This document shows, piece by piece, positions 7,214-35,438 of a stretch of DNA of 38,615 nt. The notes under the pieces were generated by a model, which made no database searches, had not been told where the DNA came from, and saw only the letters and a program-made list of their open reading frames with translations. The stretch is from a virus (taxonomy: Duplodnaviria > Caudoviricetes), in the IMG/VR virus record IMGVR_UViG_3300044708_000091, positions 1 through 38,615 of that record. One strand, given 5' to 3'. Numbering within the stretch: position 1 is the first letter of the stretch; every line of letters begins with the position of its first letter. A program made the translations under genes and the position numbers.

Positions 7214-7329
7214 GGGCACACCGCCGGGGCGTTGACGACAGGCTGCACCACGCCCGTGCCGCCGAGCGCGTTGAGCGCCAGGCTGAGCACCAGCGCGATC
7301 AGCGCCTTGTTGTTTTTCAGGAAGGCCAT
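7210..7329 (-). CDS. 39-aa single-TM protein (holin candidate)
   Basis: MAFLKNNKALIALVLSLALNALGGTGVVQPVVNAPAVCP; coupled on both sides. Confidence 0.55.
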   Translation of the reverse strand: MAFLKNNKALIALVLSLALNALGGTGVVQPVVNAPAVCP

Positions 7330-7505
7330 TACTCGGCCTCGCTGGTGTCATCCTCAAAGTCGTAGTCGTCTTCGTCAGCGTAGTAGTACAGCTCTTCGTC
7401 TTCGCCGGCTTCGGTGAGCAGGTAGAAGCCCGACCCGTCTTCGGTCTCTTCGCAGTCGCTGTCATCCACTTCGTAGCAGTCGCCGTTGTCTTCGATCAGG
7501 AGCAT
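7329..7505 (-). CDS. 58-aa extremely acidic protein
   Basis: MLLIEDNGDCYEVDDSDCEETEDGSGFYLLTEAGEDEELYYYADEDDYDFEDDTSEAE; 26 D/E, no K/R/H; TAATG coupling to the next gene. Confidence 0.75.
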   Translation of the reverse strand: MLLIEDNGDCYEVDDSDCEETEDGSGFYLLTEAGEDEELYYYADEDDYDFEDDTSEAE

Positions 7506-7507
7506 GG

Positions 7508-8906: not shown

Positions 8907-8907
8907 G

Positions 8908-10393: not shown

Positions 10394-10515
10394 TTAGGGC
10401 CTCCGAGGATTGACTGGGAACGCTCTGGGAACAGCCAGCGCACCGAGTAGCAATGCTACCCACTCCAGTTTTTCAGGTCGGGAGGCGACCGCAGAGAGGA
10501 CAGCCTCTCACTCTA

Positions 10516-10544: not shown

Positions 10545-10549
10545 GCACG

Positions 10550-10583: not shown

Positions 10584-10584
10584 T

Positions 10585-10830
10585 GTGCCACACCGCTGAT
10601 CGACCGTGTGGGCGCATCTAGGTGGCTTTCGGTCCACTCCGCCCGTGCCCCGTTTTTCGACAGTGGGCGAGTCGTGCTGTATCCGCCGGAGCGGGCCGCT
10701 TGCGCGTTCAGCCTCGGGCGTCTTGCGCCCTATGCAGAGGTGAACGGCGCTGTTCGTCAGCCCTAAAGAAGAATCGTACGTGTGCCGCTACAGCTCTCCC
10801 GGCTGTGGCACTGTGCACCTGCGTCATTTT
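10585..10830 (-). ncRNA. Candidate structured non-coding RNA
   Basis: No convincing ORF. Consecutive hairpins, several with GCAA, UCCG or GAAA loops on the minus strand, end at the terminator above. Confidence 0.45.
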
Positions 10831-10835
10831 TCAGC

Positions 10836-10864
10836 TTTACCCTGACGGGGTGAATCCGTACATT
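10836..10864 (+). promoter_or_regulatory. Putative promoter for a leaderless transcript
   Basis: TTTACC-17 nt-TACATT, then 6 nt to ATG 10871; no SD. Confidence 0.5.
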
Positions 10865-10870
10865 CGGGGC

Positions 10871-11209
10871 ATGAAAAAACGAACCGTCAACTACGCTGCT
10901 CCAGTCACCCGCGGTCGCACCGTGTTACTCGAGGCGCGGCTGCTCGCCGAGATCGCCGCGACCCACGGCGGCCTGACCATGCGCGAGCTCGGGGATAGCC
11001 TCGGCTGCGGCCGGGTAGATGCGACCTACCACTGCAAGCGCCTGGCCGCGAACGGCGAGCTGGTGCTGCAGGTCGAGCCGTGTGACGACAACTCGGGCAT
11101 CCGGCTGCGCGCGTGGGACCTGGACCAGTGCATCAGGCGATCTCGCCCGGCGCCGGCCCAGAGCGAGATCAGCGAGCTCGGGCCGCGCTCGAAGCGCGCA
11201 GCCTCATGA
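10871..11209 (+). CDS. Winged helix-turn-helix DNA-binding protein (112 aa)
   Basis: RLLAEIAATHGGLTMRELGDSLGCGRVDATYHCKRLAANGELV fits the wHTH pattern; isolated plus-strand gene. Confidence 0.75.
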   Translation: MKKRTVNYAAPVTRGRTVLLEARLLAEIAATHGGLTMRELGDSLGCGRVDATYHCKRLAANGELVLQVEPCDDNSGIRLRAWDLDQCIRRSRPAPAQSEISELGPRSKRAAS

Positions 11210-11443: not shown

Positions 11444-11664
11444 GGGATCTTCTTTGGCGCAGGTGGCGGCAGGACGGCGGCGGGCATGGCGGGCGGGGTG
11501 TGGCGGCGCGCGTGCTTGCGGGCGACCAGGGCGGCAGTGGCGACGAGCTGGCGGCTGAGCTTCCAAGCCCAGGCATCGCCGCGCGTCAGGCCCTCGATCA
11601 TCTGGGCCACCGTTATGCGGCGCAGGTCGACGGTCGGGTGAAGGGGCAGCGGGGGCGGGCTCAT
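11440..11664 (-). CDS. Hypothetical protein
   Basis: 74 aa, coupled by 4-bp overlaps. Confidence 0.55.
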   Translation of the reverse strand: MSPPPLPLHPTVDLRRITVAQMIEGLTRGDAWAWKLSRQLVATAALVARKHARRHTPPAMPAAVLPPPAPKKIP

Positions 11665-11843
11665 GGCGATCCTTGTTTTTCAGCCTGCAGAGCGCGCAGC
11701 TGGTCGTCAGACAGCGCGGCGCGGATGAGCGCTGCCGCGGCGGGCGTGGCGCTGGCGAGCAGCTCTTGAACGCGCTCGGCGTTAGCTTCTAGGGCTTCCC
11801 TGTACCAGCCGATGGGCTGGCCGTTGAACGTGTAGCTGCTCAT
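11661..11843 (-). CDS. Hypothetical protein
   Basis: 60 aa, coupled by ATGA overlaps. Confidence 0.6.
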   Translation of the reverse strand: MSSYTFNGQPIGWYREALEANAERVQELLASATPAAAALIRAALSDDQLRALQAEKQGSP

Positions 11844-12076
11844 CGTAGCCCCGCTTGTTTTTCAACCCACTGGGCTGCCTCGGCGAGCGTGAGGAACTCG
11901 CACATGCGATACTGAAAGTTCGCGCTCCAGAAGTAGTGTACCTTGTAGGCCCAGCCTACGCAGACGTATTCATCGACTAGTTTCCAGTCTTCGCCTTCAG
12001 AACCGCGTCCGAAGATCGATGATCTGGGCAGGTCAGTGTTGTGTTCGGGCACCCACTCAAACTTCGGCTTGATCAC
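11840..12076 (-). CDS. Hypothetical protein (78 aa)
   Basis: GTG start at 12076 overlaps the upstream stop; aromatic-rich. Confidence 0.6.
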   Translation of the reverse strand: MIKPKFEWVPEHNTDLPRSSIFGRGSEGEDWKLVDEYVCVGWAYKVHYFWSANFQYRMCEFLTLAEAAQWVEKQAGLR

Positions 12077-12564
12077 AGCGTAGCCCCTTCCACCCACTCG
12101 ACGTCGCGATCGGTGATATCGCCGTCCAGCGAGCCGCCATTACACATCAGGTCGTCACCCGGCATGACCTCGCAGGGCAGGTGGTGCTGGCTGTGGTTGG
12201 CCGTGTGTGAGTCGCGGATCAGGTGTCCCATCTCGTGACGGATGACCATGGGCAGGCGCGGGTCATTCAGCGCACCGTCGAGAATCCACATACGAGCCCC
12301 GCCAGCGCATCCGAGCGCGTGGACGCCCTCAGGTAGCCCGCACGTGTCGTCGAGCTCACCTTGAGCCCGCCAGGCGGCGGCGTCGATGTACGGGACGGCC
12401 ACGCCCGCGTCGCGCCACTCGCTGGCCGCAATGGCCAGGGCGCCGAGCAGCTCGGGCGGGCCTTCGGTGGCCGCGAGCGGGGCAGTCGAGCCTTCGAACT
12501 CGAGCGTCAGGTCGGCGCCGCAGGCAGGCAGCGCGAGGAGCAGCAGGGCGAGTAGCTTCGTCAT
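12073..12564 (-). CDS. Lipoprotein with zinc-metalloprotease (HExxH) motif
   Basis: Signal MTKLLALLLLALPA-C; HEMGH followed by a His-rich stretch and DDLMC (possible Met-turn). Confidence 0.7.
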   Translation of the reverse strand: MTKLLALLLLALPACGADLTLEFEGSTAPLAATEGPPELLGALAIAASEWRDAGVAVPYIDAAAWRAQGELDDTCGLPEGVHALGCAGGARMWILDGALNDPRLPMVIRHEMGHLIRDSHTANHSQHHLPCEVMPGDDLMCNGGSLDGDITDRDVEWVEGATL

Positions 12565-12570: not shown

Positions 12571-12598
12571 AGCTTAACCTTGTTTTTCAGGGTGTCCA
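12571..12598 (-). promoter_or_regulatory. Putative leaderless promoter with CTGAAAAACAAG in the spacer
   Basis: TGGACA-CC-CTGAAAAACAAG-GT-TAAGCT-6 nt-ATG(12564); a second motif copy lies just upstream (12600-12610). Confidence 0.6.
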
Positions 12599-12606
12599 GT
12601 TGTTTT

Positions 12607-12792
12607 TCAGCCCCGGCGGGTCGTGAGGTCGACTTCCACGATGTCCAGGATATGCCCGTCAGCGCCGACGAGCTGGACGAACCGGCGGCCGTGGCGCCAG
12701 GCGCGGTTGCGCGCGTACGCTATCAGGCTGGCGCGGGAGGCGCCGCAGTAGGTGGCGGTTTCGGAGGGCGAGAGGTAAATCGTGGCGAGCAT
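12607..12792 (-). CDS. Small protein with excisionase/AlpA-like HTH N-terminus
   Basis: YLSPSETATYCGASRASL resembles the HTH_17-type pattern. Confidence 0.45.
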   Translation of the reverse strand: MLATIYLSPSETATYCGASRASLIAYARNRAWRHGRRFVQLVGADGHILDIVEVDLTTRRG

Positions 12793-12835
12793 GACTTAGT
12801 GAACGGGCGGGCGGGTCGATCCTTGAGAAGTTTTT

Positions 12836-12920
12836 CATCCTGCAGGGTCCTGCATAGTCTATATAGACCCCCACGTGTCCGAGACCCTATATGTAGACCC
12901 TGCAGTACCCTGCAGGCTTT
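12836..12920. repeat. Intergenic inverted and direct repeats (origin candidate)
   Basis: CTGCAGGGTC (12840-12849) / GACCCTGCAG (12896-12905) inverted pair; palindrome GTCTATATAGAC (12857-12868); three AGACCC. Confidence 0.5.
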
Positions 12921-12940
12921 CGACCAAGTAGTGGAGATCA

Positions 12941-14989
12941 TTAGAATTCGACCCCTAGGCCGACGTAGATGTTACCCTTGCTGGTCTTCTTTTTCGGGTA
13001 TAAACGCGCAAGATCGGCCTCTCCGAGGCGTCTACCCATGGCAGTTTCGGTCATCGGCGCGTCGTTTTTGCCCTTTGAACGCTCCCAAAGTTGCCAGATA
13101 GAGCGGCCACTGGAGCCCTCACCGCTCGGTTGTGAGGCGAGCCACTGCACGAACGGCTCGGCCATGCGCTCAGCCTGTACCGAACGCGCACGCTCAGGCA
13201 TGGGCAGCGGCCCGCCCCTGGCCGCTGCCTCTAGCGCGCACCGGACGATCATGACCAGCGCCGCCGGCACGTACGTGGGTAGCACTTCGTCAGCCCAGCG
13301 CTGGTCAGAAGGGAACGTGCGGGTGAGGGGCAGGAACAGCGCGCGCGCTCTCATGGCGCCGTCCGCCCCTTCCGGCACGTCATTGCCCGTGATCCAGATC
13401 AGGCCGTGGGGCTTCAGGTCGCGGGCCGACTTGTACTTGCCGGCCACGCTGACCGTGTCCTGCCCGCCCGACGAGAAAGCCTTGATGACCGGATGCCAGC
13501 GCCCGCCGGGCATCTCGGCGCTGGTGATGAGCCGCGCGCCGCGCGTGCGGCTGAGCTGCTCTTGGCGCTCGCTCTCGGTCGTGCCGCGCAGCCACGTCTC
13601 CGGGCTCACGCTGGCCGTGTAGCCGCCGAGCGCCCTCTCGATCAGCGCAGTGAGTGAGCTCTTGCCCGTGCCCGTTGGGCCGTAGCAATTGACGAACGTG
13701 CGTTTGCCGCGGCCCAGCGCAGCCTCACCAGCCAACGACCAGGCGTAGGCCGCCAGGTCCGGCTCGCCGTCGCACCAGTCGAGCATCAGGGCCTCTACGC
13801 GCCCCGTGTCGAGCGTGTCGTCATAGCGCGCCCCTGCTGTGCGCGTGCAATACTGCTGTGGGTCGTGTGGGCGCAGTTCGCCGGTGCGCAGATCAATCAA
13901 CCCGTTGCGCGCGTTCAACACCCACGGGTCTGTGTCGGTTTCGGGCATCGTGTAGCGCCTGTGGTCGCGCAGCAGGTCCGCGCGGCGCCTGTTGCGCGCG
14001 CCGGTCTCCAGCCCGTTGATCTCGGGCCGAGCAGCGTGGACGAAGGCCTCGGCGTGAGCCTCACCCGCCGGCACCCACGCGCCCTCGCCGCCGAGCAGGT
14101 ACCAGGGCTGCGCCTGGTTGGCCTCGTTCCGCCTGAGCTCGAGCGGGCGTGCCGTTTCGATATCGCTCTGGCCGAGCAGCGCCAGCCCGTACTCTTGCAG
14201 CCTGCGCGCCCCGTTCCACTGCCCGCGCTCGCCGTCCCGCACGGAGCGGAACGCGCTCATCGCGCTCGCCACGTGGCGCGCGTTCTGCCCGGTCAGGGCC
14301 GCAGTGCAGTAGGCCAGCGCGGCGTCCTCTGCCCATCGGTGCTGGGCCAGCATGGCGCCGAGGTGGCCCGCCTTGTCGTTCGTCCCCTCAGGCTCGGCCA
14401 GCAGCTTATCGAGCGAGGCGCGATCCCAAGCCTCGAGCCCCGCCGTCGCGCCCGCGCTCTTCTTAGCCTTGCGTTCAGGCTTCGCCTGCGCAGCCAGCAC
14501 AGGCATGCGCTCGCCCTGGTACGCGATTACCGACCCGCCAGGCGCGGGCGAGAACAGGAACCGGCTCACGTCCCGCGCGCGCTTGTCCGCGCCGGCCTTG
14601 ACCCAAGGCGTGATAGTGGCCTCGTATTCTTCAGCCGTGGCCAGGCGCTCAAGGTGGATGAGCGCGTGCCAGTTGCCGCTGTGAGACTGCACCTCCACGC
14701 GCTCGAAGCGCTGCAGCGCCTCGGGCAGCGCCGAGTGGTCCACGTCGAGCACCAGCCACTCGCTGCCCTTGATATTCACCTTGCGCCGCGGGCCGCGCGG
14801 GTCGATCAGCTCGGCCAGCACGTAGCCCGGCGAGCCGAGCTTGAGCGTGCACTTACCGTCGCCCCCCAATACGCACCGTGTGCCGTCGCAGAGCCCGTTG
14901 TGAGGGATCGTGGCAGCCACGTCCTCCACTGTCTCTGCGTGGTGGTATATGAAAGGCGGCGAATCGGACTTGTTTTTCAGGAAGTGCAT
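12941..14989 (-). CDS. Primase-helicase (AEP primase + D5/P4-type SF3 helicase), 682 aa
   Basis: WLVLDVDH and SHSGNWH primase motifs; D5_N-like LNARNGLIDLRTGELRPHDP; Walker A GPTGTGKS. Start taken at ATG 14989. Confidence 0.9.
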   Translation of the reverse strand: MHFLKNKSDSPPFIYHHAETVEDVAATIPHNGLCDGTRCVLGGDGKCTLKLGSPGYVLAELIDPRGPRRKVNIKGSEWLVLDVDHSALPEALQRFERVEVQSHSGNWHALIHLERLATAEEYEATITPWVKAGADKRARDVSRFLFSPAPGGSVIAYQGERMPVLAAQAKPERKAKKSAGATAGLEAWDRASLDKLLAEPEGTNDKAGHLGAMLAQHRWAEDAALAYCTAALTGQNARHVASAMSAFRSVRDGERGQWNGARRLQEYGLALLGQSDIETARPLELRRNEANQAQPWYLLGGEGAWVPAGEAHAEAFVHAARPEINGLETGARNRRRADLLRDHRRYTMPETDTDPWVLNARNGLIDLRTGELRPHDPQQYCTRTAGARYDDTLDTGRVEALMLDWCDGEPDLAAYAWSLAGEAALGRGKRTFVNCYGPTGTGKSSLTALIERALGGYTASVSPETWLRGTTESERQEQLSRTRGARLITSAEMPGGRWHPVIKAFSSGGQDTVSVAGKYKSARDLKPHGLIWITGNDVPEGADGAMRARALFLPLTRTFPSDQRWADEVLPTYVPAALVMIVRCALEAAARGGPLPMPERARSVQAERMAEPFVQWLASQPSGEGSSGRSIWQLWERSKGKNDAPMTETAMGRRLGEADLARLYPKKKTSKGNIYVGLGVEF

Positions 14990-15142
14990 GGTATCTTCTC
15001 TTGTGTGGGCGACCGCTTGTGTGGGCAGGAAGCAACTGCGCAGGCGGTCGTCTGTTGTTTCGAGTGTGACACGCACACAGCTGAAAAACAAGCGCTTGCG
15101 CACCCTGAAAAACAAGTCAAGCTCAAGCGTAGGAGAACGAAC
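14990..15142. promoter_or_regulatory. Divergent control region with two CTGAAAAACAAG sites
   Basis: Gap between divergent operons; motifs at 15081 and 15105; TTGCGC-16 nt-CAAGCT brackets the second; AGGAGA RBS before ATG 15143. Confidence 0.6.
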
Positions 15143-15757: not shown

Positions 15758-17067
15758 AGCGGATCGGCCTATCCCCAAGCGCGCTAAAAGCCTTCCTGGC
15801 CTGCCGGCGCAGCTGGTGGTTGCAGTTCAGCGCGCGCGTCGATCGCATCGTGCCGCCCTACGTCACGGCCGGCAGCGCGCTGGATCAAGTGGTGCAGGAC
15901 TACCTGACCAGCGGCGCTATGCCTGTGCACCTGCCGCTGGGCTCGCCCGAGCTGGCCGAGCTCGCAGTCTTGCGGCCCGAGCTGCCTGCGCCAGGCTCCG
16001 TGCTCGTGCAAAAGAAGTTCACGCTGCCCTGCCCGGGCCTCGAGCAGCTGGTCGATATCACGACCGGCGGCCTCGACTACCTCACGCCGCCGAATCTCGA
16101 CCTGATTGTCATCGGCGACCTAAAGCGCATCTGGCACAAGGACGCGGCCATGTCGCCTGAGCAGCTAGCGGCGAACGAGCAGGCGCAGATGTATGCGTGG
16201 CTCGTGTGGCAGGTGTACAACCCGGCCGAGATCATCTGGCGCTGGACGTATTGCGTCAGAGAAACACGCAACGCCACGACGGGCGCCGTCACGCGCAAGG
16301 CGAAGGCGTTCAGCGTCGATGAGAAGGCCGACCGCTCCAAAGTGGAGGCCTGGTTTGCAAGCGTCGTGTTGCCTGCAGCGCGCGCCATGCTAGAGATAAG
16401 AGACAGCGCGCGCGCAGCCGAGGCCGTGGAACACAATCCCGACAGCTGTGAAGAGGGCGCCCGCTGCTTCGTCCGTCACCACTGCCCGATGTACCAGGGC
16501 CCAGTCAGAGGAGAATCAAACAACATGGTCGACCTATCCCGCTTCAAGACGAACAAGAGCAGCCCAGTGATGCCCCTGGGGCAGGCCGTGGAGGAGCAGC
16601 GCGCGCGGATCGCTATCAACCCGCCTGCGCTGACCGAGTTCGCAGCTGCGCTGTCCGTCACCACGATCGAAGGCCCCGGCGCCGCGCTGCTCGCCACGGA
16701 GGACGACGGCATCGACGCCGTTGAAGACAAGGCACACGCCGCGGCGCTGGCCGAAGCGCGCCCCACTGAGCCCGCGCCTGCGCCCGAGGCTCCGGAGCCG
16801 CCTGCCCCAAAAGCCCGGCGCCGCCGCGCCAAGATCACCGATGTTCAGCCTGCGGCTGCTCTTACCACAGCTCAGATCACAGACGAGCTGCTTGTTTATT
16901 CGCCTGGTGCCTCACTTGCAGCTGCCCCTGAAAAACAAGGCCTGAGCCAGCACGAGCGCGAGGCCGTCGGCGCGCCGCCGAGCGTGGAAGCCGCGTCCAC
17001 TGAGGCGCTCGTGTGGGAACTGCGCGACCGCGGATGGGTTGTGAGCCTGACGGCAGGCGCGCTGTGA
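15754..17067 (+). CDS. PD-(D/E)xK (Cas4/AddB-like) exonuclease with low-complexity C-terminal extension
   Basis: GTG 15754; LSPSALKAFLAC, GGLDY, IGDLK, QAQMYA and a distal Cys cluster (CEEGARCFVRHHC). Confidence 0.8.
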   Translation: MKRIGLSPSALKAFLACRRSWWLQFSARVDRIVPPYVTAGSALDQVVQDYLTSGAMPVHLPLGSPELAELAVLRPELPAPGSVLVQKKFTLPCPGLEQLVDITTGGLDYLTPPNLDLIVIGDLKRIWHKDAAMSPEQLAANEQAQMYAWLVWQVYNPAEIIWRWTYCVRETRNATTGAVTRKAKAFSVDEKADRSKVEAWFASVVLPAARAMLEIRDSARAAEAVEHNPDSCEEGARCFVRHHCPMYQGPVRGESNNMVDLSRFKTNKSSPVMPLGQAVEEQRARIAINPPALTEFAAALSVTTIEGPGAALLATEDDGIDAVEDKAHAAALAEARPTEPAPAPEAPEPPAPKARRRRAKITDVQPAAALTTAQITDELLVYSPGASLAAAPEKQGLSQHEREAVGAPPSVEAASTEALVWELRDRGWVVSLTAGAL

Positions 17068-17674: not shown

Positions 17675-19032
17675 TCCCACACGCTTGGCAGCAGGCTGCA
17701 ATCGCCAGCTTCGACGCACTCGGCGGCGTGGCTTGTTTTCAGCCTCCGGGCGCCGGCAAGAGCCTGGTCGGCGCCGAGTGCATGAAGCGCGGCGCCCGCC
17801 CGCTATACGTGACCAAGGCCTCGGCCCGGGCGCAGACGCGCAGGATGCTCAAGTCGTACGGTTATACAGGCCCGGACGACAGCGTGATCAGCTACAACGC
17901 TATCAGCCTGGACGATGGCCTGCTCGAGCGCCTGCGCCCCGACGTATTAGTGGTGGACGAGTCGCAGGCGCTGAAGAATCTGCGCAGCGCCGCCTGGACA
18001 CGCAGGGTCGCGCGCTACCTGGCGCAGCATCCGGAGTGCCGGGTGGCCGCGCTCAGCGGCTCCGTGATGGGGCGCAGCGCGCTCGACTACCTGCACTTCC
18101 TGGTCTGGACGCTGCGCGCGGGCGCGCCCTGTCCGCGCTCGAGCGCCGCCTGGCCGCGGTTCGTGCTGGACATTGAGCGCGACCCGGCGGCGTGGCTCGA
18201 GCGCCTGCGCAGCTGCCCTGGCGTCTTTCTCGACGCGGCGCCGAGCTGGAACGGCCACCTGCTGATCACGGAGGATTGGCGCGAGCCGCTCTGCCCGGAC
18301 GCGCTGGCGCGCGCTGAAGCCGGTACGGCGCCTGACGGGTGGGCGGTTGAGGGCTGGGCTCAGGACGAGCTCGAGAAGCAGCTAGCGTGCGGCTTCTACC
18401 TGCGCCGTGAGCCCCGCCCGAGCCCTGCTCTGCTCGACGCGCAGCGCAGCTGGAACAAGTGCGTCGAGCAGGCCAAGGCTTACGGGTTATCTGATACTGA
18501 GCTCGGCGCCCGCGCCGTTTACCCGACGGGCTGGGCCCAGTGGCAGCGCGCGCTCGCGGCTGAGCCTGAAGCTGAGCAGGTCGTGGAATGGCTTAGTCGG
18601 CCATATGTGCCACACCACGCGCAGGACGGTACTATCATCTGGGTTCACCACGGCGCACTCGGCGAGAGCCTAGCCTGGCTCATGGGCGTGCCGTATCAGC
18701 GCGAGGGCGGGCTGAGCGAAGATGGCGTGCGCCTTGATGAGACACACGAGCCGGTCGTCATAGCGTCTATTGCAGCGTGCAACGAAAGCTTCAACGCGCA
18801 GCAGTTCCGGCACAACATCGTGCTCGAGCCGCCGAGCGACGCGCGCGTCTGGCAGCAGCTTCTGTGCCGAACCGCGCGCCAGGGGCAACTCGCCCGCGAA
18901 GTGACGTGCGAGGTTGTTATTCAGGCGCCTATCTTCGGTCGAGCGCTTGACTCTGCCCGCAAAGCGGCGCATAAGATAGAGAGCGAGTCCGGGCAACAAC
19001 AATGGTTGATCCAGGCTGAAAAACAACGATGA
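17671..19032 (+). CDS. Superfamily 2 (SNF2-like) helicase
   Basis: PPGAGKS, VVDESQ, LSGS and motif VI QLLCRTARQGQ; ATG 17671. Confidence 0.85.
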   Translation: MIPHAWQQAAIASFDALGGVACFQPPGAGKSLVGAECMKRGARPLYVTKASARAQTRRMLKSYGYTGPDDSVISYNAISLDDGLLERLRPDVLVVDESQALKNLRSAAWTRRVARYLAQHPECRVAALSGSVMGRSALDYLHFLVWTLRAGAPCPRSSAAWPRFVLDIERDPAAWLERLRSCPGVFLDAAPSWNGHLLITEDWREPLCPDALARAEAGTAPDGWAVEGWAQDELEKQLACGFYLRREPRPSPALLDAQRSWNKCVEQAKAYGLSDTELGARAVYPTGWAQWQRALAAEPEAEQVVEWLSRPYVPHHAQDGTIIWVHHGALGESLAWLMGVPYQREGGLSEDGVRLDETHEPVVIASIAACNESFNAQQFRHNIVLEPPSDARVWQQLLCRTARQGQLAREVTCEVVIQAPIFGRALDSARKAAHKIESESGQQQWLIQAEKQR

Positions 19033-19202: not shown

Positions 19203-19713
19203 CGCGCCTCAGGATTACCGCACGTCGCCCGAGCTGCTCGCCGCAGTCGAGGCCCGCTACGGGCGCATAACGTTCGACGCCGCGTGCACGGTCGAGAACG
19301 CCGTGGCTGACCTAGGCTTTCACTACCCAGAGCACGACGCGCTCGCCGAAGACTGGTCAGCGCTCGAAGGGCAGACGATCTGGGCAAACCCACCTTTCAG
19401 GCAGTCTGGCCAGTTCGCTCTGAAAGCCAAAGCCAGTCAGCAGGGCCTCACAGGGCCTGCCCGCGTCCTGCTGCTAGTGCAGGCAGCCGTCGACACGCAG
19501 TGGTGGGAAGATCACGTGCGCTACAACGCGCTGGTTCTGCACCTCGCACCGCGTCCCGCCTTCGTCGGCATGACAGCGGGCATCAATCGCGCGCTCGCGC
19601 TTTGCGTGTACGGACCCGGCATCGCGCCGGGCGAGCAGCGCTGGGTTTGGAAGCCGCGCAAAGTCAGAGGGCTGAAAAACAAGCCCGCCAATAAGAAAGA
19701 AGAGAACAAGTAA
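19180..19713 (+). CDS. Phage DNA N6-adenine methyltransferase (Dam-like family)
   Basis: DYRTSP, FDAAC, DAL..DW, WANPPF and DTQWW motifs. Confidence 0.85.
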   Translation: MAQVNRANAPQDYRTSPELLAAVEARYGRITFDAACTVENAVADLGFHYPEHDALAEDWSALEGQTIWANPPFRQSGQFALKAKASQQGLTGPARVLLLVQAAVDTQWWEDHVRYNALVLHLAPRPAFVGMTAGINRALALCVYGPGIAPGEQRWVWKPRKVRGLKNKPANKKEENK

Positions 19714-20267
19714 TGGCAAACGCAATCGTAGCAACCAACCCCAACACGCAGCTCGTCAAGCCGCTGCAGCTCTCCAACGTAGCGCTCGACGCGCTCGACC
19801 GTGACGTGGAAGACTTCGGCGTTCAGGCAGCCCTGCTACCGCTCAAGCCGTTCATCATCGAAGGCGCCATTACGTTCCTCGAGTGGTGCGAGTTCGGCGC
19901 CGTAAGGCCGGGCGCGCCGAGCGAGAGCGAGGGCCTCAAGTTCCTCATTCGCGTTGACAGGCTGGAAGAGCCAGGCTTCACCAACGGCAAGGGCGTCGTG
20001 CAGCCGGCCATGATCAAGGTCGGGACGGAATGCCCGAACATATACTTCAGTCGTCATCCCAAGCTCACCTTTGCTCTGCCTGAGATGGCCGTGCATCGTA
20101 AGCGCTTGTTCAACGCGATCGATCCATCGGCCAAGCCGAGCGATGTGCTCAAGCAATTGAGCGGTCAGACAATCTCTGTACCAGTTCGGATGATCAGGTC
20201 GTACGTGCGCACTACGCGCAACGGGTCAGATCTGTTCGCCGACAGTTTCGAGGCTATCCAGGGCTGA
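19713..20267 (+). CDS. Hypothetical replication-module protein (possible ssDNA-binding protein)
   Basis: 184 aa upstream of the polymerase; function inferred from position only. Confidence 0.5.
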   Translation: MANAIVATNPNTQLVKPLQLSNVALDALDRDVEDFGVQAALLPLKPFIIEGAITFLEWCEFGAVRPGAPSESEGLKFLIRVDRLEEPGFTNGKGVVQPAMIKVGTECPNIYFSRHPKLTFALPEMAVHRKRLFNAIDPSAKPSDVLKQLSGQTISVPVRMIRSYVRTTRNGSDLFADSFEAIQG

Positions 20268-20349
20268 AAAACAACACCGACCAGCCGCGCGACGCGAACA
20301 TACCGTTGACTGAATTATGCAACGGCGCGCGGCAGGTCACCTAATAACT

Positions 20350-22310: not shown

Positions 22311-22312
22311 AG

Positions 22313-23597: not shown

Positions 23598-23863
23598 TGA
23601 CACCGAATGTGCACTGGAAACTCTGGGAACTGCCTGTCATGTACGGCCCGCGCAAGCCTGTCAATGGGCGACGCGCTGAGCGGCCTGAGCTGCGCGTGCT
23701 CGAGGCTGTGGCGCCTAGCACGCGCAACAGGCGCCGACGCGCTGGCGGCGACACGCTGACGCGCCTGCTGTCGTGCAAGCCGCTCGACGTTGAGCTGCGC
23801 CGCCTCCAGCGCGCAGCCGCGCGCAGCAAAGCCAGGCTGAAAAACAAGACGGTGAAGCCGTGA
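23594..23863 (+). CDS. Hypothetical basic protein
   Basis: 89 aa, Arg-rich, coupled. Confidence 0.55.
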   Translation: MMTPNVHWKLWELPVMYGPRKPVNGRRAERPELRVLEAVAPSTRNRRRRAGGDTLTRLLSCKPLDVELRRLQRAAARSKARLKNKTVKP

Positions 23864-24494: not shown

Positions 24495-25680
24495 CCGCAA
24501 CGCGCGCAGGCGCCAATTGACAGCCGAGCGCCGCGGCGCGCTCGGCCTGGCCGCGCCGCCGCAGGGCTTCGTCCCCACGGTCATCTCAACCGACGGCGAG
24601 GGCGCCGTCCGCGCCGTGCGCTCGATCCCGGAGAACGACGGTGAGGAGCGCCAGCAGCCTATCGTGCTCGAGGGCCACCAGATCCGCTTCGTAACGTCGC
24701 TGCTGGACGCCGAAGGCAACGTCAAGCTGCAGTACGTGAGAGGAGAGCGCGGCGCGGACCGCTATGCAGACGCGCTGGCTGCGGTGGATCGGCACTTTGA
24801 CGCGCTGGCGTGGAAGCTCGAAGTCACGGCTCGCATGCCCCCGCCCATAGCCGAGCCCGACGTGCCGGCCAACGAGCTGCAGGTCACGCTGCTGCTCGGC
24901 GATCCTCACATCGGCATGCTGAGCTGGCACCTGGAGACGGGCACTGACTTCGACCTGCGCATCGCCACGGCGCAGCTCAACCGGGCCGTGGACATGCTGA
25001 TCGCACGCGCGCCGCAGGCGCAGCGCCTGGTGATCGCCAACCTAGGCGACTTCTTCCACGCCGAGAACGACGAGCAGCGCACGCCTCGGGGCGGCAACAA
25101 GCTCGACGTGGACGGGCGCTGGGGTAAGATCCTCGACCTCGGCTTCGCGGCTCTCGAGCGCTGCATTGAGCGCGGGCTGCAGAAGTACCCGTGGGTGGAG
25201 GTGGTGAATCTGCCCGGCAATCACGACCCTCGGCTGGCGCGCGTGCTGGCGCGCTGGCTGGCCACGCGCTTCCGGAACGAGCCGCGCGTCAGCGTCAGGG
25301 GCAATGACGACCCGTTCATGTTCGTCAGCTGGGGCCAGAATCTGCACATGTACGTACATGGCGACGGCGCCAAGCCCGCCGACTTGCCGGCCATCATGGC
25401 TGCCTATCGCGACGGCGAGCCCTGGGGCCAGCACCGGCATCGCATGATCTACACCGGCCACATTCACCACCTCCAGCGCAAGGAATTCCCGGGCGTGGTG
25501 TGGGAATCGTCGCGAACGCTGGCGCCCGGCGACTACTGGCACCATCACAGCGGGTACAGGGCCGGCCGCGGCATGCGCGCCGTCACGCACCACAAGGAAC
25601 ACGGACACATCCGCGAAGACCTGATCTCGGGCCGTGAGGTGGAGTTGTCGCTGCTGAACGATTCGGCCTTGACGGGCTGA
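24472..25680 (+). CDS. Calcineurin-like metallophosphoesterase
   Basis: GDPHIG, LGDFFH, GNHD, HGD and GHIHH motifs; GAGGAG RBS before GTG 24472. Confidence 0.9.
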   Translation: MPYKNAADRNARRRQLTAERRGALGLAAPPQGFVPTVISTDGEGAVRAVRSIPENDGEERQQPIVLEGHQIRFVTSLLDAEGNVKLQYVRGERGADRYADALAAVDRHFDALAWKLEVTARMPPPIAEPDVPANELQVTLLLGDPHIGMLSWHLETGTDFDLRIATAQLNRAVDMLIARAPQAQRLVIANLGDFFHAENDEQRTPRGGNKLDVDGRWGKILDLGFAALERCIERGLQKYPWVEVVNLPGNHDPRLARVLARWLATRFRNEPRVSVRGNDDPFMFVSWGQNLHMYVHGDGAKPADLPAIMAAYRDGEPWGQHRHRMIYTGHIHHLQRKEFPGVVWESSRTLAPGDYWHHHSGYRAGRGMRAVTHHKEHGHIREDLISGREVELSLLNDSALTG

Positions 25681-25696
25681 AAAACAAGGCTAGGCT
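25669..25696 (+). promoter_or_regulatory. Putative leaderless promoter with CTGAAAAACAAG in the spacer
   Basis: TTGACG-GG-CTGAAAAACAAG-GC-TAGGCT-6 nt-ATG(25703). Confidence 0.65.
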
Positions 25697-27967: not shown

Positions 27968-28001
27968 CGGCGCTTGTTTTTCAGGGTGCTATTCTTTGAT
28001 C

Positions 28002-30660: not shown

Positions 30661-30687
30661 GAAACGCTCACTCTGACTGCTTGTTTT

Positions 30688-32592
30688 TCAGGCTGGCATG
30701 GGCGGCGCGCCGCCTCCGGCAGCGCCCTGCGCCTGAGCCAGCGCGCTCATGGCGCCGTCGCTCAAACCGCCCCCGCCCGGGCCCACTGCGCCCTGCGCCG
30801 TGGCCTGAACGCTCGTCTGGCTGATGTAGGCCTGGACCTCGTCCAGGAATCTTGTGAAGTAGAGCAGCCGGTCGTCGGGCAGCCCCTTCGAGCGCGCGAC
30901 CAGCAGGTGCTGAGCCACGGTCTTAGCTGCGCTCTGCAGATCCATCCACGGGATTGGTCCCTGATACTCGATCGACTCGGCGTGCTGCCAGGCGTCGACT
31001 TGACGCTCGAGCCACTCTTCCTGCGCGACGGCCAGCGACGTGCGCTGTTTTTCGTCGAAGTCCTGCTGGAAAGAGAGCAGCTCGCTGCCCGTGATGAGCC
31101 CGGCCTCGAAGGCCTGATCCATCTTCTCGAGCCGCGCCTTCGGGCTCTGCTTGTCCTCGCTGACCGGCGCGACGGTGAGGCAATACTGCTCCTCGTCCAG
31201 GTCGAGATCGGCGAGTTTGATCTCCTCGATGTAGTCGCCCTTGACGTAGCGAGCGGCGTAATCCGGGTTTGATTCTAGCACATCTTGAAGCGTCCAGACG
31301 ATGAATCGGGCGCTTACCGTGGTGCGGACGTCAATTAGGCGCCGCTCGGCGTCGGCGAATCGCTCCGTAAACAGCGCGGCCACCATATTCTCGTGCTTGC
31401 CGCTGGTCGTCCCGACGCTGCGCTTCGCGCTCGTGTGCTGGTCCGACACGCCGCTGATATCGTGCGCACCCTGCTCGTGGAACTGGAGCAGGCCGAGCGA
31501 GTCCTGGCTGAACTTCGGCGGCGTCACGGCCTGGAATGCCGTGGACATGTCGCCCGCGCCGTTGATCTCGACGAACTGCCAGCCCCTGACCTTCTCCAGG
31601 TCGCCCTGGCGGGTCGCGTCTTTCTTGTGCAGCACGAGGCCCTGAGGGCTGTTGCGCTCTGCGTAATCCACGTCTGCGATGATCTGGTTGACCCGCATCA
31701 CCTGGTTGTAGATCGAGCGCGTCATACTCGCGCCCCATTGGCCGTAGAGGCTCCGCTCATAGTGCCACAGCGCCATGGGCGGGCAGTCGCGATCGAAGTC
31801 GTCATCGTGCAACACGGTGCCGTCTTTCAGCACGCACATGTAGCGCCCGGCCGTCTCGCCGCGCGCGCTGCGCCAGCCCTGATACACGCGAACGCCGCGC
31901 AAAGGCGTGGCCTCGTTCGTGTGCGGGTCCTCGGACTGCACGTCCGTGCTGACCTCGTTCTCGAGGATCTCCTCTTCGAACTTAGGGTAGCGCTCGATCA
32001 GGTCTTCCGCGCTGTACCAGGTGGTACGGACCAGCGCGACGATGCGCCCGAAGCGTCCGGAGCGCTCGATCCCGAGCGTGAGCGTGTCGTCCAGCTCTGC
32101 AGTCAGGCCGTCCACGTCGGCGCGATAGAACACTGCGAACGAGCCCGTGGCGGCCATGGCGAGCATGGCGCCGTGGCGAAACATCTCATGCAGGTTGCTG
32201 AACGAGCCCTGCTGGCGGCCGTACTCGGCCGTGACGAGCCGGTCGAGCCTGACGGCCTTGGTTCGCATGGCCCAGTCGCCGCCGTTGCTCATGAACTGAG
32301 GCAACGGGCTGTCCTGCGCCGTGATCTTGCTGACGGCTGTCTGCACGATCGACCTGCACGTGTTGCGCACGATCGGGATGTCCAGGTCCCGAAAAACTTC
32401 GTCGTTGTCGTTCACGTAGCCGGCGTCGCCGAAGCTGTTCAGGCTGAGGCCTTCGAACAGCGACGCGAACAGCAGCGCCTCAGCTCGGCGTTGCCCGTTG
32501 GCCTGGATCGAGCGCTCGCACTCGCTGATGAGCAGCTCGGGCGCGTCTTGTTTTTCGGCCCTATACCAGCGCTCTTTGGTTTCGTTCTTCAT
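30688..32592 (-). CDS. Portal protein
   Basis: 634 aa; portal-like segments (IVRNTCRSIVQTAVSKI, DISGVSD, TTSGK) and a low-complexity Ala/Gly/Pro tail; precedes the scaffold. Confidence 0.8.
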   Translation of the reverse strand: MKNETKERWYRAEKQDAPELLISECERSIQANGQRRAEALLFASLFEGLSLNSFGDAGYVNDNDEVFRDLDIPIVRNTCRSIVQTAVSKITAQDSPLPQFMSNGGDWAMRTKAVRLDRLVTAEYGRQQGSFSNLHEMFRHGAMLAMAATGSFAVFYRADVDGLTAELDDTLTLGIERSGRFGRIVALVRTTWYSAEDLIERYPKFEEEILENEVSTDVQSEDPHTNEATPLRGVRVYQGWRSARGETAGRYMCVLKDGTVLHDDDFDRDCPPMALWHYERSLYGQWGASMTRSIYNQVMRVNQIIADVDYAERNSPQGLVLHKKDATRQGDLEKVRGWQFVEINGAGDMSTAFQAVTPPKFSQDSLGLLQFHEQGAHDISGVSDQHTSAKRSVGTTSGKHENMVAALFTERFADAERRLIDVRTTVSARFIVWTLQDVLESNPDYAARYVKGDYIEEIKLADLDLDEEQYCLTVAPVSEDKQSPKARLEKMDQAFEAGLITGSELLSFQQDFDEKQRTSLAVAQEEWLERQVDAWQHAESIEYQGPIPWMDLQSAAKTVAQHLLVARSKGLPDDRLLYFTRFLDEVQAYISQTSVQATAQGAVGPGGGGLSDGAMSALAQAQGAAGGGAPPMPA

Positions 32593-35438
32593 TGGAGACT
32601 CGTCGGGCCTTTGGAGAAGCCGGCCGTGGCTGAGGCGGGCGCCGTCGCGCCGGACGCGGCGCTCTTTTTACCTGCGGCCGGCTGATTCCAGACCTGCTGC
32701 ATGGTTTTCGTCATGTCGGCTGAGAAGGCGGGCCCGCTCGCTCCGGGCAGATCGAACAGCACGTCGAGCTGGCGCAGCGTCTCGAAAGGCATCGTGGCGC
32801 GGTCGACTTGCTTAAGGATGTCAGTGCGGAGCGAGTCGTAGATGTCCGGATGCACTTCGCGCAGCGCTTTGATCTGCGTGGGCGTGGCGCTCCCTGTGCC
32901 GACATCATAGATGACGTCTCCCGGATTCATGGCGCCGGACCAGGTTTGGGCGAACTGAGCCAGCGCGATCGTGTCGGGCGTGATCCCGTCCGGATTCACC
33001 GCGCTGATGCCCACGCTCGGCGGCGCGTTAGCCAGCGTGTAGTGCGCGGCCGCGGCAGTCCGCTGCACGAGCTCGAAGTAGAGATCTTCATGCTCGTCCG
33101 CGACGGCCCCGTAGGCGTGGGCGATGCCGTTGACGAGCGCGTGCGGGTCAGAGAGGGCCTGTTGCAGGTCGTCCAGCTTCACGGCGTAGGCCGCGCCGAG
33201 GCTGCTCGAGCCTTCCTTGAACCGCTCGAGCGTGGACGGCAACGGCCGCGGGCGCGTAGCCTTCACGACCAGCCCGCCCGCGGCGCGCTCGCGCAGCGTC
33301 CGGTTGTCGTCGCTGATGTCCGCAAGAGCGTTCGTGATGGCCGGCGCGGCTGCGATTGCGCCAGCCGCGGCCAGGCCGCCCGCGGCCATCGCGCCCACGC
33401 TGGCTGAGCCTGCCTGGCTGCCCCGCGCGCCCCGGTCGGGCGCGGGCGCGGCTGCAGCGGGCGCAGGGCTGCGCCCGGCCGGGCCCGGCGCGGGGATAGC
33501 CCCGCCTTCGGCCGGCGGAGCGTAGGGTCGCTCCGCGGTGCGCCCGAGGCGCTTGCTCACGGCCGCGCGGGCGCCTTCTCGCGTCAGCTCGGTGCGCGCA
33601 GGCTTGATCTTAGGCTCGAATAGGCGCTCGCCAATCGACTTGCCCGTCAGCTTCTTGGCCGCCAGGTCGGCAGTGTGGATCGCGTGCCCCACGCCCGGCA
33701 CGTGCTTGCTCGCGTCAAACAGCGCCTCGGCCGTGCCGTGCGCGACGGGCGCGGCTGCCTTGCGCGCCAGAGCGTCTGCGCCACGTACTTGCGTCTCACG
33801 CAGCCGCGTCAGCTCGTCGGCCATCGATCGAATGTCGTTGACGCTCTGCTGCAGCCGGATCACGGGCGTGTTTGCCATCGTGTTTGCGCCGAGCTCGGCC
33901 TTCGTCAGGGTCATCTTCTCGACCTTGTCGGCCCACGTACGCATGGCGCCGACGGAGCGGTTAAACTCGCGCTCCGTCATGCCGAGCGCGCTCTTCACCA
34001 CGTCGCCTTTCACCTGAAAGACAGGGAATTCCTCGAAGCCCTTCCTGACCTTGCCAACTGGGCTGCGCTCCAGGAAGTCGGCCTGCCACTGACGACCCGT
34101 GTTGATGATCCCGTCGTTACCGCTCCAGAGCTTGTTAGTCTCGCGCTGGTATTCCGACCACGCCTTGCCGTAGATTGAGCCCTTCTCAAGCCGAGCGCGC
34201 ATCTTGTTCGTGCGCTCGCCGACGAACTCCGCAATGTCGGTCGCCACGATATCGCGCGCCGAGCCATACTTGCTGATCAGCTTGTCACCATACTGCTTCG
34301 CGCGGTCACCCGCGCGCGCTACGTACACTGCGTCGCCTCGCTCGAGACTCTCGTTCATGGCCTCGCCGATGCCGTTGGCGTGCTCGCGCGTGCGAATGGC
34401 CGCCTGCTTCTGGCCCTTGCTCTCCAGGTAGGAGGCGATCTCCTCGAGATCTGCCTGCTGCCGCGCGGCTTCTTTCTGCACGCGGCCCCACTTGGCGTCG
34501 CCCATCTTGCCTTCGAGGTCCGCGGCCTTGTTTTTCAGGCTGTGGACTTCGTCAAAAGCAGGCGCGGGCCCGCCTAGCGCGTCTTCAATCGCGTCGCCGC
34601 CCGAGCGCTCCACTTCACGGTGAATGTCATCGAAGTTGTCGACGTAGTGCTTTACGTCAGCCTCACCCATCGGGGCAGCGCCTGTCTCGTCTGCAGCGGC
34701 CGCGCCCACGCTGCGCCGCGCTTTGCTAGTCGCGCGCCCGCGGCTGATCGCGTTCGCGCCTTCGTCAGCGGCCGCCTCGATGCCTTCGGCTGCCGTGCGC
34801 GTGCCGCGCGCTGCGTCTGCAGCGGCCTCGAGCGGCGTGGTCACGGCGCGCGAAGCGCCGCGCGCCAGCCGCGCAGCTGCGCTCAGGCCGAACGCGAGCG
34901 GCAGGCCCTGTATCACGTTGACGGGCTCGATATTGCGATGTTCTTCACGCGCGTTCTGAACTTCGATCGCGCCTGAATTCGCTACCTCCTCGCCCACGAG
35001 CGAGCCGATCGAGGCCGCGCGCGCGCCGAAGCCTGCAGCTTCCATCGCGCCAGCGCCCGCTAGGCCGCCAGCGGCCATGGGCGCCACTGCGCCCGCCACC
35101 TGCGTCAGCGTGTGCAGCGTGGGGCTGGCTGCCTTGAAGTCGTTGATCGCCTGGATGTCCTGCGCGCCGCCAGACAGACCGGCGAGGCCGAACGTGGCAG
35201 TGGAGGCAGCAAGGCGCGCCGCTGACTCGGCCTGCGCGGCCGTGGTCGTGTTTTTCAGGTAAGAGGCGCGCTTCTCGATCTCCTCAGGCGTGGCCGGCAC
35301 GAGGCCCAGCGACTTGATGCGCGTGTCCGGCGTGGACCGCTTCCACATCTGGATCTGGCCCGTCGCAGGGTCGCGATAGGCCGTTAGCGACGGGTCTGCA
35401 GCCGCGTCGATCAGCGAGCTTGACGGCTCGTCAGCCAT
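32589..35438 (-). CDS. Large internal virion / DNA ejection protein
   Basis: 949 aa, helical and Ala-rich with Gly/Ala hydrophobic stretches; third of three large genes after the nozzle. Confidence 0.6.
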   Translation of the reverse strand: MADEPSSSLIDAAADPSLTAYRDPATGQIQMWKRSTPDTRIKSLGLVPATPEEIEKRASYLKNTTTAAQAESAARLAASTATFGLAGLSGGAQDIQAINDFKAASPTLHTLTQVAGAVAPMAAGGLAGAGAMEAAGFGARAASIGSLVGEEVANSGAIEVQNAREEHRNIEPVNVIQGLPLAFGLSAAARLARGASRAVTTPLEAAADAARGTRTAAEGIEAAADEGANAISRGRATSKARRSVGAAAADETGAAPMGEADVKHYVDNFDDIHREVERSGGDAIEDALGGPAPAFDEVHSLKNKAADLEGKMGDAKWGRVQKEAARQQADLEEIASYLESKGQKQAAIRTREHANGIGEAMNESLERGDAVYVARAGDRAKQYGDKLISKYGSARDIVATDIAEFVGERTNKMRARLEKGSIYGKAWSEYQRETNKLWSGNDGIINTGRQWQADFLERSPVGKVRKGFEEFPVFQVKGDVVKSALGMTEREFNRSVGAMRTWADKVEKMTLTKAELGANTMANTPVIRLQQSVNDIRSMADELTRLRETQVRGADALARKAAAPVAHGTAEALFDASKHVPGVGHAIHTADLAAKKLTGKSIGERLFEPKIKPARTELTREGARAAVSKRLGRTAERPYAPPAEGGAIPAPGPAGRSPAPAAAAPAPDRGARGSQAGSASVGAMAAGGLAAAGAIAAAPAITNALADISDDNRTLRERAAGGLVVKATRPRPLPSTLERFKEGSSSLGAAYAVKLDDLQQALSDPHALVNGIAHAYGAVADEHEDLYFELVQRTAAAAHYTLANAPPSVGISAVNPDGITPDTIALAQFAQTWSGAMNPGDVIYDVGTGSATPTQIKALREVHPDIYDSLRTDILKQVDRATMPFETLRQLDVLFDLPGASGPAFSADMTKTMQQVWNQPAAGKKSAASGATAPASATAGFSKGPTSLQ

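What the first reader, a model, noticed from the sequence alone, without database searches (positions are those of the whole stretch)
7310..34538. Genome-wide, transcription-oriented motif CTGAAAAACAA: candidate operator/stoperator network
Seen: 17 exact copies by manual count (leftmost coordinates). Minus strand: 7310, 11673, 12580, 12600, 14970, 27974, 30681, 34528. Plus strand: 15081, 15105, 16928, 19016, 19672, 20264, 22291, 23837, 25677. Near-matches occur at 951(+), 10467, 11855, 32548 and 35248. With GC estimated at ~68%, chance expectation is about 0.001 copies. Exact copies follow the local operon direction and flip at the divergent region. They are read in different frames (EKQ, LKN, or as the TGA stop itself at 12607, 20265, 25678, 30688), so selection acts on the nucleic acid. 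Most lie at gene starts or ends, and they come in pairs at control regions. Established precedent: the asymmetric, oriented stoperators of mycobacteriophage L5/Bxb1, bound by the immunity repressor. Inference: a phage or host protein binds these sites to repress or stall transcription genome-wide, although no integrase is visible. Alternatives are an RNA-level antitermination/processing signal or a replication/packaging polarity signal.
Basis: partly seen in the sequence, partly recalled or inferred. Interest (0 to 1): 0.9.

Follow-up and report, generated by a model that had tools for sequence, protein, structure and literature searches.

The report
Oriented operator network in soil podophage
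A soil phage with no detectable integrase carries 17 identical copies of one 11-base word, pointing the way its genes run, mostly at gene junctions and inside predicted promoters; these are likely docking sites through which one of the phage's own proteins, possibly a small winged-helix regulator, would switch off genes across the genome.

Summary
Observation confirmed: 17 exact CTGAAAAACAA copies at the stated places in a complete 38.5-kb podovirus-like genome with no integrase found. Selection is on the nucleotides: 9 of 10 coding positions that could carry the word do (0.46 expected), 13 of 13 gene-overlapping copies are sense, and 14 of 17 lie within 40 nt of a gene boundary. Two copies stay unchanged in related strains while their flanks vary. 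New here: two copies sit at the same place in the spacer of predicted sigma-70 leaderless promoters, and all four such promoters carry a copy or near-copy, which points to a DNA-level operator. Nine relatives (capsid 60-79% identical) lack the word and any comparable one. The genome's only recognisable transcription factor, a winged-helix protein, has a recognition helix changed only in this clade. Best reading (0.5): an operator network that likely works like mycobacteriophage stoperators but is built from unrelated parts. Binding, repression and the binder are untested. The 61-aa 'HTH' is not supported. Similar oriented repeats are published for T1-like and Microbacterium phages, and this scan noted the kind before on other DNA. 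New variant of a known kind; interest 0.5.

The parts
7310..7320 (-). exact copy, codons 4-7 (LKNN) of a 39-aa single-TM holin-like gene at the head of the predicted lysis genes
   Evidence: holin role inferred from position before a lipoprotein and the endolysin
11673..11683 (-). exact copy, end of 11661-11843 (AEKQ), 8 nt before ATG 11664
12580..12590 (-). exact copy in the spacer of the predicted leaderless promoter TGGACA-16-TAAGCT-6-ATG of the 12073-12564 lipoprotein
   Evidence: unchanged in strain contigs of X2, X3, X6
12600..12610 (-). exact copy, supplies the TGA stop of 12607-12792; lies just upstream of the predicted -35 of the same promoter (pair, 20-nt spacing)
   Evidence: unchanged in X2, X3
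14970..14980 (-). exact copy, codons 4-7 (LKNK) of the D5-like primase-helicase (ATG 14989); its complement could give the -35 of a rightward promoter 14970-14997
15081..15091 (+). exact copy, divergent region; its complement could give the -35 of a leftward promoter 15091-15063
   Evidence: promoter predicted only
15105..15115 (+). exact copy, divergent region, in the spacer of a weaker predicted promoter TTGCGC-16-CAAGCT (pair, 24-nt spacing)
16928..16938 (+). exact copy inside the PD-(D/E)XK nuclease gene (PEKQ)
19016..19026 (+). exact copy, end of helicase (AEKQ), 2 nt before ATG 19029
19672..19682 (+). exact copy, end of Dam methylase gene (LKNK), 30 nt before ATG 19713
20264..20274 (+). 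exact copy, supplies the TGA stop of 19713-20267, upstream of DNA polymerase A
22291..22301 (+). exact copy, end of DNA polymerase A (PEKQ), 11 nt before ATG 22313
23837..23847 (+). exact copy, end of 23594-23863 (LKNK), 12 nt before GTG 23860
25677..25687 (+). exact copy, TGA stop of the exonuclease and spacer of the predicted leaderless promoter TTGACG-16-TAGGCT-6-ATG (25669-25696) of 25703
27974..27984 (-). exact copy before the terminase large subunit; lies reversed in the spacer region of the predicted extended -10 leaderless promoter (27987-27995, +) of 28002
30681..30691 (-). exact copy, supplies the TGA stop of the portal gene
34528..34538 (-). exact copy in the middle of the 949-aa predicted internal virion protein (LKNK; most relatives read LKK or LKR here)
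11855..11865 (-). one-mismatch copy (TTGAAAAACAA), 11 nt before ATG 11843, sense
32548..32558 (-). one-mismatch copy near the portal start (AEKQ with rare GAA-AAA-CAA codons), sense
35248..35258 (-). one-mismatch copy in the 949-aa gene, sense
10824..10834 (-). two-mismatch copy directly upstream of the predicted -35 of the wHTH promoter; autoregulatory site or a generic T-tract
10466..10476 (-). two-mismatch copy in the capsid leader, downstream of the strongest predicted promoter (10544-10510); may belong to a leader RNA structure instead
10871..11209 (+). 112-aa winged-helix protein, lead candidate binder, with its own predicted leaderless promoter TTTACC-17-TACATT (10836-10864)
   Evidence: Pfam MarR_2 E=1.4e-5, below cut-off; model pLDDT 84; wHTH-type fold matches, none at E<=0.001 in PDB; clade-specific recognition helix
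12607..12792 (-).

Best explanation
The 17 identical, transcription-oriented copies are likely operator sites on the DNA for one phage-encoded repressor, most plausibly the winged-helix protein 10871-11209, which would block host RNA polymerase where a copy lies in a predicted promoter and may act as a one-way roadblock at the other copies. Shown: number, places, orientation, nucleotide-level selection, conservation of two copies in close strains, absence from nine relatives, and a clade-specific recognition helix. Predicted: the sigma-70 leaderless promoters and the wHTH fold. Inferred: binding, repression rather than activation, the binder (about 0.35-0.4 for this wHTH overall) and elongation arrest (about 0.3). 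The life-cycle role is inferred too. Either it silences a non-integrated carrier state and blocks superinfecting kin, or it is a timed shut-off during lytic growth; copies at the heads of replication, packaging and lysis genes fit both.
For: Selection on nucleotides in three reading frames and between genes. 14 of 17 within 40 nt of a gene boundary, against 13.6% of the genome, p=3.5e-10. Only 4 of 54 genes have TAnnnT 5-7 nt before the start. Three of the 4 have an exact copy within 45 nt (7 of the other 50; Fisher p=0.017) and the fourth, the wHTH, has a 2-mismatch copy. Copies 12580 and 25677 share the layout -35/2 nt/word/3 nt/-10/6 nt/ATG, reached by 9e-5 and 3e-5 of genome positions (layout chosen after seeing them); such copies lie upstream of the predicted start site, so these promoters' own RNA lacks them. 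In strain contigs 0 of 22 word positions vary against 15 of 39 flanking positions, p=4.5e-4. The wHTH is the only transcription-factor fold among 55 proteins scanned. 37 of 38 distant family members aligned have SRQ at the start of the recognition helix; the window's clade has GRVD, on one branch with 100/100 support and length 1.07. The three fetched relatives with an SRQ-type gene (G001, G002, L072) have no exact copy. Asymmetric oriented sites at both promoters and gene junctions are what PMC9283540 describes for L5 (passages).
Against: No binding or expression data exist. 14 of 17 copies are not in a well-scoring same-strand promoter. No integrase and no ParA/ParB hit, so a state that needs silencing is not shown; no prophage of the family was found in GTDB genomes. 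The strongest predicted promoter (capsid) has no exact copy. Helix change and word gain could both simply mark this clade: one lineage, one observation. T-tracts like the 10824 near-copy also occur at promoters of G001 and G002, and these two show a mild excess of 2-mismatch words (13 vs 6.9; 12 vs 4.4). In strains X2 and X6 the -35 hexamer at 12593-12598 changes while the word-to--10 distance stays, which also fits an activator box. MarR/ArsR-type proteins are usually dimers on palindromes (established knowledge, recalled); the word is only pseudo-palindromic.
Confidence: 0.5

Rival explanations
1. The word is an activator or antiterminator loading box (like the T4 MotA box or the lambda Q-binding element, both recalled): a phage protein binds it next to the -10 and switches promoters on or modifies the polymerase.
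For: Fixed distance to the -10 at two promoters, kept in strains while the -35 changes; orientation is expected of such a box; no integrase. An earlier scan note (e1-5910807) reached a promoter reading for another phage.
Against: No -10 at a fixed distance in 14 of 17 copies; P25703 already has a 5/6 -35; the copy at 27974 is reversed relative to its promoter; mid-gene copies (16928, 34528) have no promoter role.
Confidence: 0.15
2. The word acts in RNA (CUGAAAAACAA): a site for a translational repressor or enhancer, or for a sequence-specific ribonuclease, near start codons.
For: Always sense in genes; 10 of 54 genes have a copy within 45 nt upstream of the start and two more just inside it; sequence downstream folds weakly (mean -6.6 vs -11.5 kcal/mol background); only 19 of 54 genes have an SD-like 4-mer; read-through transcripts would contain even the promoter copies.
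Against: Distance from word to start ranges from 2 to over 190 nt, or the word lies inside the gene, unlike SAS elements; exact spacer placement in two promoters; no RNase or RNA-binding protein recognised; no Rfam match.
Confidence: 0.15
3. The word is the site of a host DNA-binding protein (a stress or developmental regulator, or a nucleoid protein) that this lineage has recruited.
For: No phage protein is shown to bind; the host is unknown; lineage-specific gain could follow a host change.
Against: The promoter-plus-word pattern gave 16 hits in GTDB genomes, in scattered unrelated taxa, each with one copy in 3.5-6 kb. This is a weak test: no candidate host phylum could be sampled whole.
Confidence: 0.12
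4. Another, unrecognised small phage protein is the binder and the sites serve something other than transcription control, such as DNA organisation or protection.
For: Many small ORFs have no family and are missing from relatives; an A5 tract suits minor-groove binders (inference).
Against: Does not explain spacer placement or the flip with transcription.
Confidence: 0.05
5. Replication or packaging polarity signal (KOPS-, Chi- or pac-like).
For: Asymmetric and oriented.
Against: Orientation flips at the divergent region (~15.0 kb) and between 25.7 and 28.0 kb, about 11-13 kb apart on a 38.5-kb circle, exactly with transcription. It does not flip across the presumed origin at 12.8-12.9 kb (copies 12600 and 14970 are both minus; origin inferred from repeats).
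Confidence: 0.03

Closest known systems
Operators/stoperators of Cluster A mycobacteriophages (L5 gp71, TipsytheTRex repressor; PMC9283540, PMC6550527, passages read)
   Same: About 13-bp asymmetric sites, about 20 per genome, oriented with transcription, in promoters and at gene junctions; motif differs between related phages.
   Different: Unrelated sequence; podovirus-like phage, probably of a Gram-negative host; no integrase or parABS found; candidate binder is a 112-aa single winged helix with no match to the two-domain Cluster A repressor among 41 PDB hits at E<=1; elongation arrest untested; the network is confined to one clade.
Oriented intergenic repeats of lytic T1-like phages (T1, TLS, Stevie; PMC11447400, PMC4319613, passages read)
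   Same: 16-21 asymmetric oriented copies in a phage without lysogeny genes, using host polymerase; function unknown and named as an open question.
   Different: Those are 21-22 nt, degenerate, intergenic, about 76 nt before starts; here an invariant 11-mer is often written into coding ends and promoter spacers, with a candidate binder.
Microbacterium Cluster EC/EI oriented motifs and Cluster K/EF start-associated sequences (PMC7302621, passages read)
   Same: Repeated, oriented, near starts, in phages without repressor or integrase.
   Different: Those keep a narrow distance to the start codon (21-30 bp, or the RBS position); this word does not.
Mycobacteriophage Cluster O 17-bp repeats (PMC4351075, passages read)
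   Same: Dispersed invariant sites in a phage with no integrase or parAB.
   Different: Those are palindromic and not oriented.

Membership tests
Cluster A operator/stoperator system | Many copies of a short asymmetric site across the genome | tested here: met
   17 exact plus 5 one-mismatch copies
Cluster A operator/stoperator system | Orientation follows transcription | tested here: met
   13 of 13 gene-overlapping copies sense, p=0.007 against background skew; 2 of 5 one-mismatch copies are antisense
Cluster A operator/stoperator system | Sites at gene junctions and in promoters | tested here: met
   14 of 17 near boundaries; copies in predicted promoters; promoters not mapped experimentally
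Cluster A operator/stoperator system | Two-domain (HTH + Stoperator domain) L5 gp71-type repressor | tested here: not met
   No such hit in Pfam or PHROG scans of 55 proteins; wHTH profile and model match ArsR/MarR/DeoR types only
Cluster A operator/stoperator system | Temperate life style with integrase or parABS | tested here: not met
   PF00589 absent in six frames; no serine integrase or Par hit among 55 proteins; no family prophage in GTDB scan
Cluster A operator/stoperator system | Bound repressor stops elongation in one orientation only | not testable with these tools
   needs in vitro transcription or reporters
Start-associated sequences (SAS, Cluster K/EF) | Fixed position at the ribosome-binding site, anti-SD complementary | tested here: not met
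   distances vary widely, some copies inside genes; word has no GGAG core
Phage-specific promoter or activator box | Fixed spacing to a -10 element or start site at all copies | tested here: not met
   met at 2-3 of 17 copies only
Intrinsic terminator U-tract (antisense) | GC-rich hairpin before the T run | tested here: not met
   mean -9.7 kcal/mol against -11.5 background for 40-nt windows
MarR family | Pfam MarR/MarR_2 above cut-off and N/C-terminal dimerisation helices | tested here: inconclusive
   25.6 bits vs cut-off 27; model shows a wHTH core with one short C-terminal helix; oligomeric state not tested

The most novel reading that the evidence does not exclude
A stoperator-like silencing network arose recently and independently in one clade of integrase-less soil podophages: a family-wide winged-helix protein changed its recognition helix (SRQ to GRVD), and the genome then wrote the new site into promoter spacers, stop codons and protein ends. 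A single winged helix would then be a one-way roadblock for host RNA polymerase and keep a non-integrated carrier state silent and immune to kin.
Probability: 0.22. Interest if true: 0.78.

Novelty: new variant of a known kind. Interest (0 to 1): 0.5.

Why it matters
Orientation-dependent repressor roadblocks have been shown only for Cluster A mycobacteriophages in the papers found here, and oriented repeats of lytic phages such as T1 and TLS are a stated open question (PMC11447400). This genome offers a small testable case: an invariant 11-mer, promoters that look readable by standard sigma-70 polymerase, one 112-aa candidate binder, and natural controls (SRQ-type relatives without the word). 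It would show whether a single winged helix can do the job, and how fast such a network is written into coding DNA. The interest is tempered because the pattern is published for several phage groups and recurs in this scan.

Tried and rejected
Other viruses with the network: the paired-word scan gave 54 loci, all GC 0.46 or lower, unrelated, with chance pairs or tandem repeats. The 16-base scan gave 119 loci from 38 of 64 parts scanned; 116 held one copy and 3 held two, and the tool fetched flanking DNA for only 80 of them. The promoter-layout scan gave 8 loci with one copy each. Terminase, portal and wHTH queries found no viral loci. No capsid match among 50,697 INPHARED phages. De novo searches for an equivalent dispersed word in nine relatives found nothing near the window's signal (best log10 p about -10 against -34); CCTGAAAG x12 in G001 is of mixed orientation, inconclusive. 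A type I/methylase-type site CTG-N5-CAA was rejected because the five central As are invariant. A suspected second word, GTGGAGGC, did not rank among over-represented words. Rfam: no match. No RNA holder listed among 8 runs. A homodimer prediction for the wHTH was not obtained, so its oligomeric state is open. Host-genome enrichment could not be tested for the likely host group. Literature: 50 papers hold the 11-mer as a string; of the 25 listed none concerns phage regulation by title (not opened, the other 25 not seen). Supplements were not read; site lists there could hold similar words.
Full report
The window is a complete circular phage genome: an IMG/VR record with direct terminal repeats, 127 bases of overlap and 38,488 unique bases. 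Its genes are podovirus-like: capsid (NCBIfam capsid_maj_Podo, E=8e-8, below cut-off), portal, terminase, endolysin, D5-like primase-helicase, helicase, DNA polymerase A, Dam methylase and nucleotide enzymes. No integrase was found (14 of 14 control genomes rang), and no partition protein among 55 proteins scanned. It or close strains occur in soil metagenomes. The host is unknown. Lipoprotein genes suggest a Gram-negative bacterium (inference), and Myxococcota is only a weak lead from look-alikes of one lipoprotein.

Observation. The consensus is S-CTGAAAAACAA-S. Five one-mismatch copies exist against 0.15 expected, two of them antisense. The enrichment survives codon-aware nulls. Synonymous resampling gave at most 11 copies in 1000 runs. 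Of 10 sense positions whose peptide could carry the word, 9 do, against 0.46 expected from this genome's codon use (AAA 19% of Lys, GAA 26% of Glu, CAA 15% of Gln), and the tenth is one base off. Four stops are the word's TGA. All 13 gene-overlapping copies are sense; similar words are already 69% sense, so p=0.007. Fourteen of 17 lie within 40 nt of a gene boundary (13.6% of the genome; p=3.5e-10). Orientation flips with transcription and not across the presumed origin after the primase gene (origin inferred from CTGCAG repeats).

Promoters. Four of 54 genes have TAnnnT six bases before ATG, the layout of leaderless sigma-70 promoters (consensus recalled): 10871, 12564, 25703 and 28002. Three have an exact copy within 45 nt, against 7 of the other 50 (p=0.017), and the fourth has a two-mismatch copy directly before its -35. 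At 12580 and 25677 the layout is the same: -35 (TGGACA, TTGACG), 2 nt, word, 3 nt, -10 (TAAGCT, TAGGCT), 6 nt, ATG; I chose that layout after seeing it. At 27974 the copy lies reversed in front of an extended -10. In the divergent region copies overlap weaker predicted promoters in both directions. The other copies show no -10 at a fixed distance, and the strongest predicted promoter, before the capsid gene, has no exact copy. A site in the spacer lies upstream of the start site, so it most likely acts on DNA. Read-through RNA could still contain it, so an RNA role is lowered but not excluded.

Close strains. Contigs from runs X2 and X3 (two studies) span the pair at 12580/12600, and one from X6 covers 12580 at low depth. 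None of 22 word positions varies, against 15 of 39 flanking positions including indels (p=4.5e-4). The distance from word to -10 is kept. The -35 changes in X2 and X6, which a repressor site tolerates but which also fits an activator box. A polymerase homolog whose contig continues into the next gene ends at 'VWTP', without EKQGT, so that peptide is dispensable; its DNA was not seen.

Relatives. The capsid has 73 homologs, and 25 loci could be fetched. None holds an exact copy. Nine sequences of 5 to 41 kb, capsid 60-79% identical, including one complete genome and three long fragments, have no exact copy and no comparable dispersed word. L062 (capsid 94%) is only 2,453 bases and covers no exact site. 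At orthologous places the word looks gained: primase MHFLKNK against MHYLKG in L067. At the 34528 site, 21 of 23 homologs were aligned (two weak hits dropped): 1 reads LKNK, 2 LRNK, 15 LKK or LKR, 3 other. G001 and G002 show a mild excess of two-mismatch words and T-tracts at their own promoters, so the word may derive from an older promoter feature; this is inconclusive.

Binder. The 61-aa protein has no HTH support and has a 46% homolog in L067, which lacks the word. The 112-aa protein at 10871 is a winged helix on its own predicted leaderless promoter, read against the surrounding genes. A profile search gave 49 further representatives. I aligned 38 and dropped 11 long or weak generic hits; 37 of 38 begin the recognition helix with SRQ. 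The window's protein and nine near homologs read GRVD and form one branch (100/100, length 1.07; bootstrap not fully settled). SRQ-type genes occur in G001, G002 and L072, which lack the word, and G003 and G004 have no such gene. Against this: GRVD-type proteins share contig lengths with the virion-protein cluster whose representative reads LRNK at 34528, so the exact word is probably missing at that one site in part of the clade. Also, a single clade gives one coincidence, not a correlation. Binding is untested.

Mechanism. Most likely (0.5) a phage repressor, probably this wHTH, occupies the copies, blocks initiation at the spacer sites and may stop elongation at the rest. Copies at the heads of primase, polymerase, terminase, scaffold-like and holin-like genes would let it silence each module. 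Whether this serves a carrier state with immunity or lytic timing cannot be told. Rivals: activator or antiterminator box (0.15), RNA signal (0.15), host protein site (0.12), another role or binder (0.05), polarity signal (0.03).

Known systems. It works, by anatomy, like the operator/stoperator system of Cluster A mycobacteriophages (PMC9283540 and PMC6550527, passages read). It is not a member: no two-domain L5-type repressor, no integrase or parABS, and arrest untested. Oriented repeats of unknown function are also published for lytic T1-like phages (PMC11447400, PMC4319613; passages), Microbacterium clusters EC/EI (PMC7302621) and Nostoc phages (PMC4916379); Cluster O repeats are palindromic (PMC4351075). 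The original L5 paper was not read. MotA, lambda Q, KOPS and MarR dimer properties are recalled. This scan holds 12 similar findings in at least 11 other genomes (8 shown; unchecked notes) and none on this genome or its relatives.

Verdict. The feature is real and strongly selected, a new variant of a known kind. It stands out for its invariance, promoter-spacer placement, recent clade-limited origin and a candidate binder with a changed helix. Interest 0.5; the bolder reading (independent origin of a one-helix roadblock network in an integrase-less phage) has probability about 0.22 and interest 0.78.

Noticed in passing
window 10394-10505 (-); L062 1-122; L001 9340-9476: The capsid 5' leader looks like a structured RNA: a hairpin (GGTCG/CGACC, loop CCTCC) followed by an A-rich stretch and GGAG that could close a pseudoknot, a second hairpin with compensatory changes between the window and L062, and a 3' hairpin weakly shared by 8 relatives. 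No Rfam match.
   Followed up: partly
window 12800-12940: Presumed replication origin right after the primase gene: three CTGCAG repeats and TATAT tracts; L067 has GGGACAAG three times at the same place.
   Followed up: partly
window 12073-12564 (-): Lipoprotein with an HExxH zinc-peptidase motif under a word-bearing promoter; M10/M57-like look-alikes, often from Myxococcota; homologs in L066 and L067. Possible superinfection-exclusion or host-surface factor (inference).
   Followed up: partly
window 20469-23597 (+): DNA polymerase A followed by a dATP/dGTP diphosphohydrolase and an HD 5'-deoxynucleotidase, a set recalled from phages that reshape nucleotide pools or use modified bases; no PurZ-like hit.
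   Followed up: no
window 28857-29561 (-): GroES/Cpn10-like protein in the head-assembly block (Pfam E=5.5e-5), conserved in G001-G004.
   Followed up: no
window 28002-28465 (+): Two small genes inserted against the late operon between the presumed terminase subunits, with their own predicted promoter; not found in G001-G004.
   Followed up: partly
window 15754-17067 (+): PD-(D/E)XK nuclease ORF with a strong in-frame internal start (AGGAG...ATG at 16525), suggesting a nested second protein.
   Followed up: no
L067 3440-3630: GC-rich tandem array of GGGGCGCCGTC-like units between the lipoprotein and capsid genes, where the window has the wHTH island.
   Followed up: no
window 15143-15757 (+): Pentapeptide-repeat protein as first gene of the rightward operon, directly behind the paired copies.
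   Followed up: no
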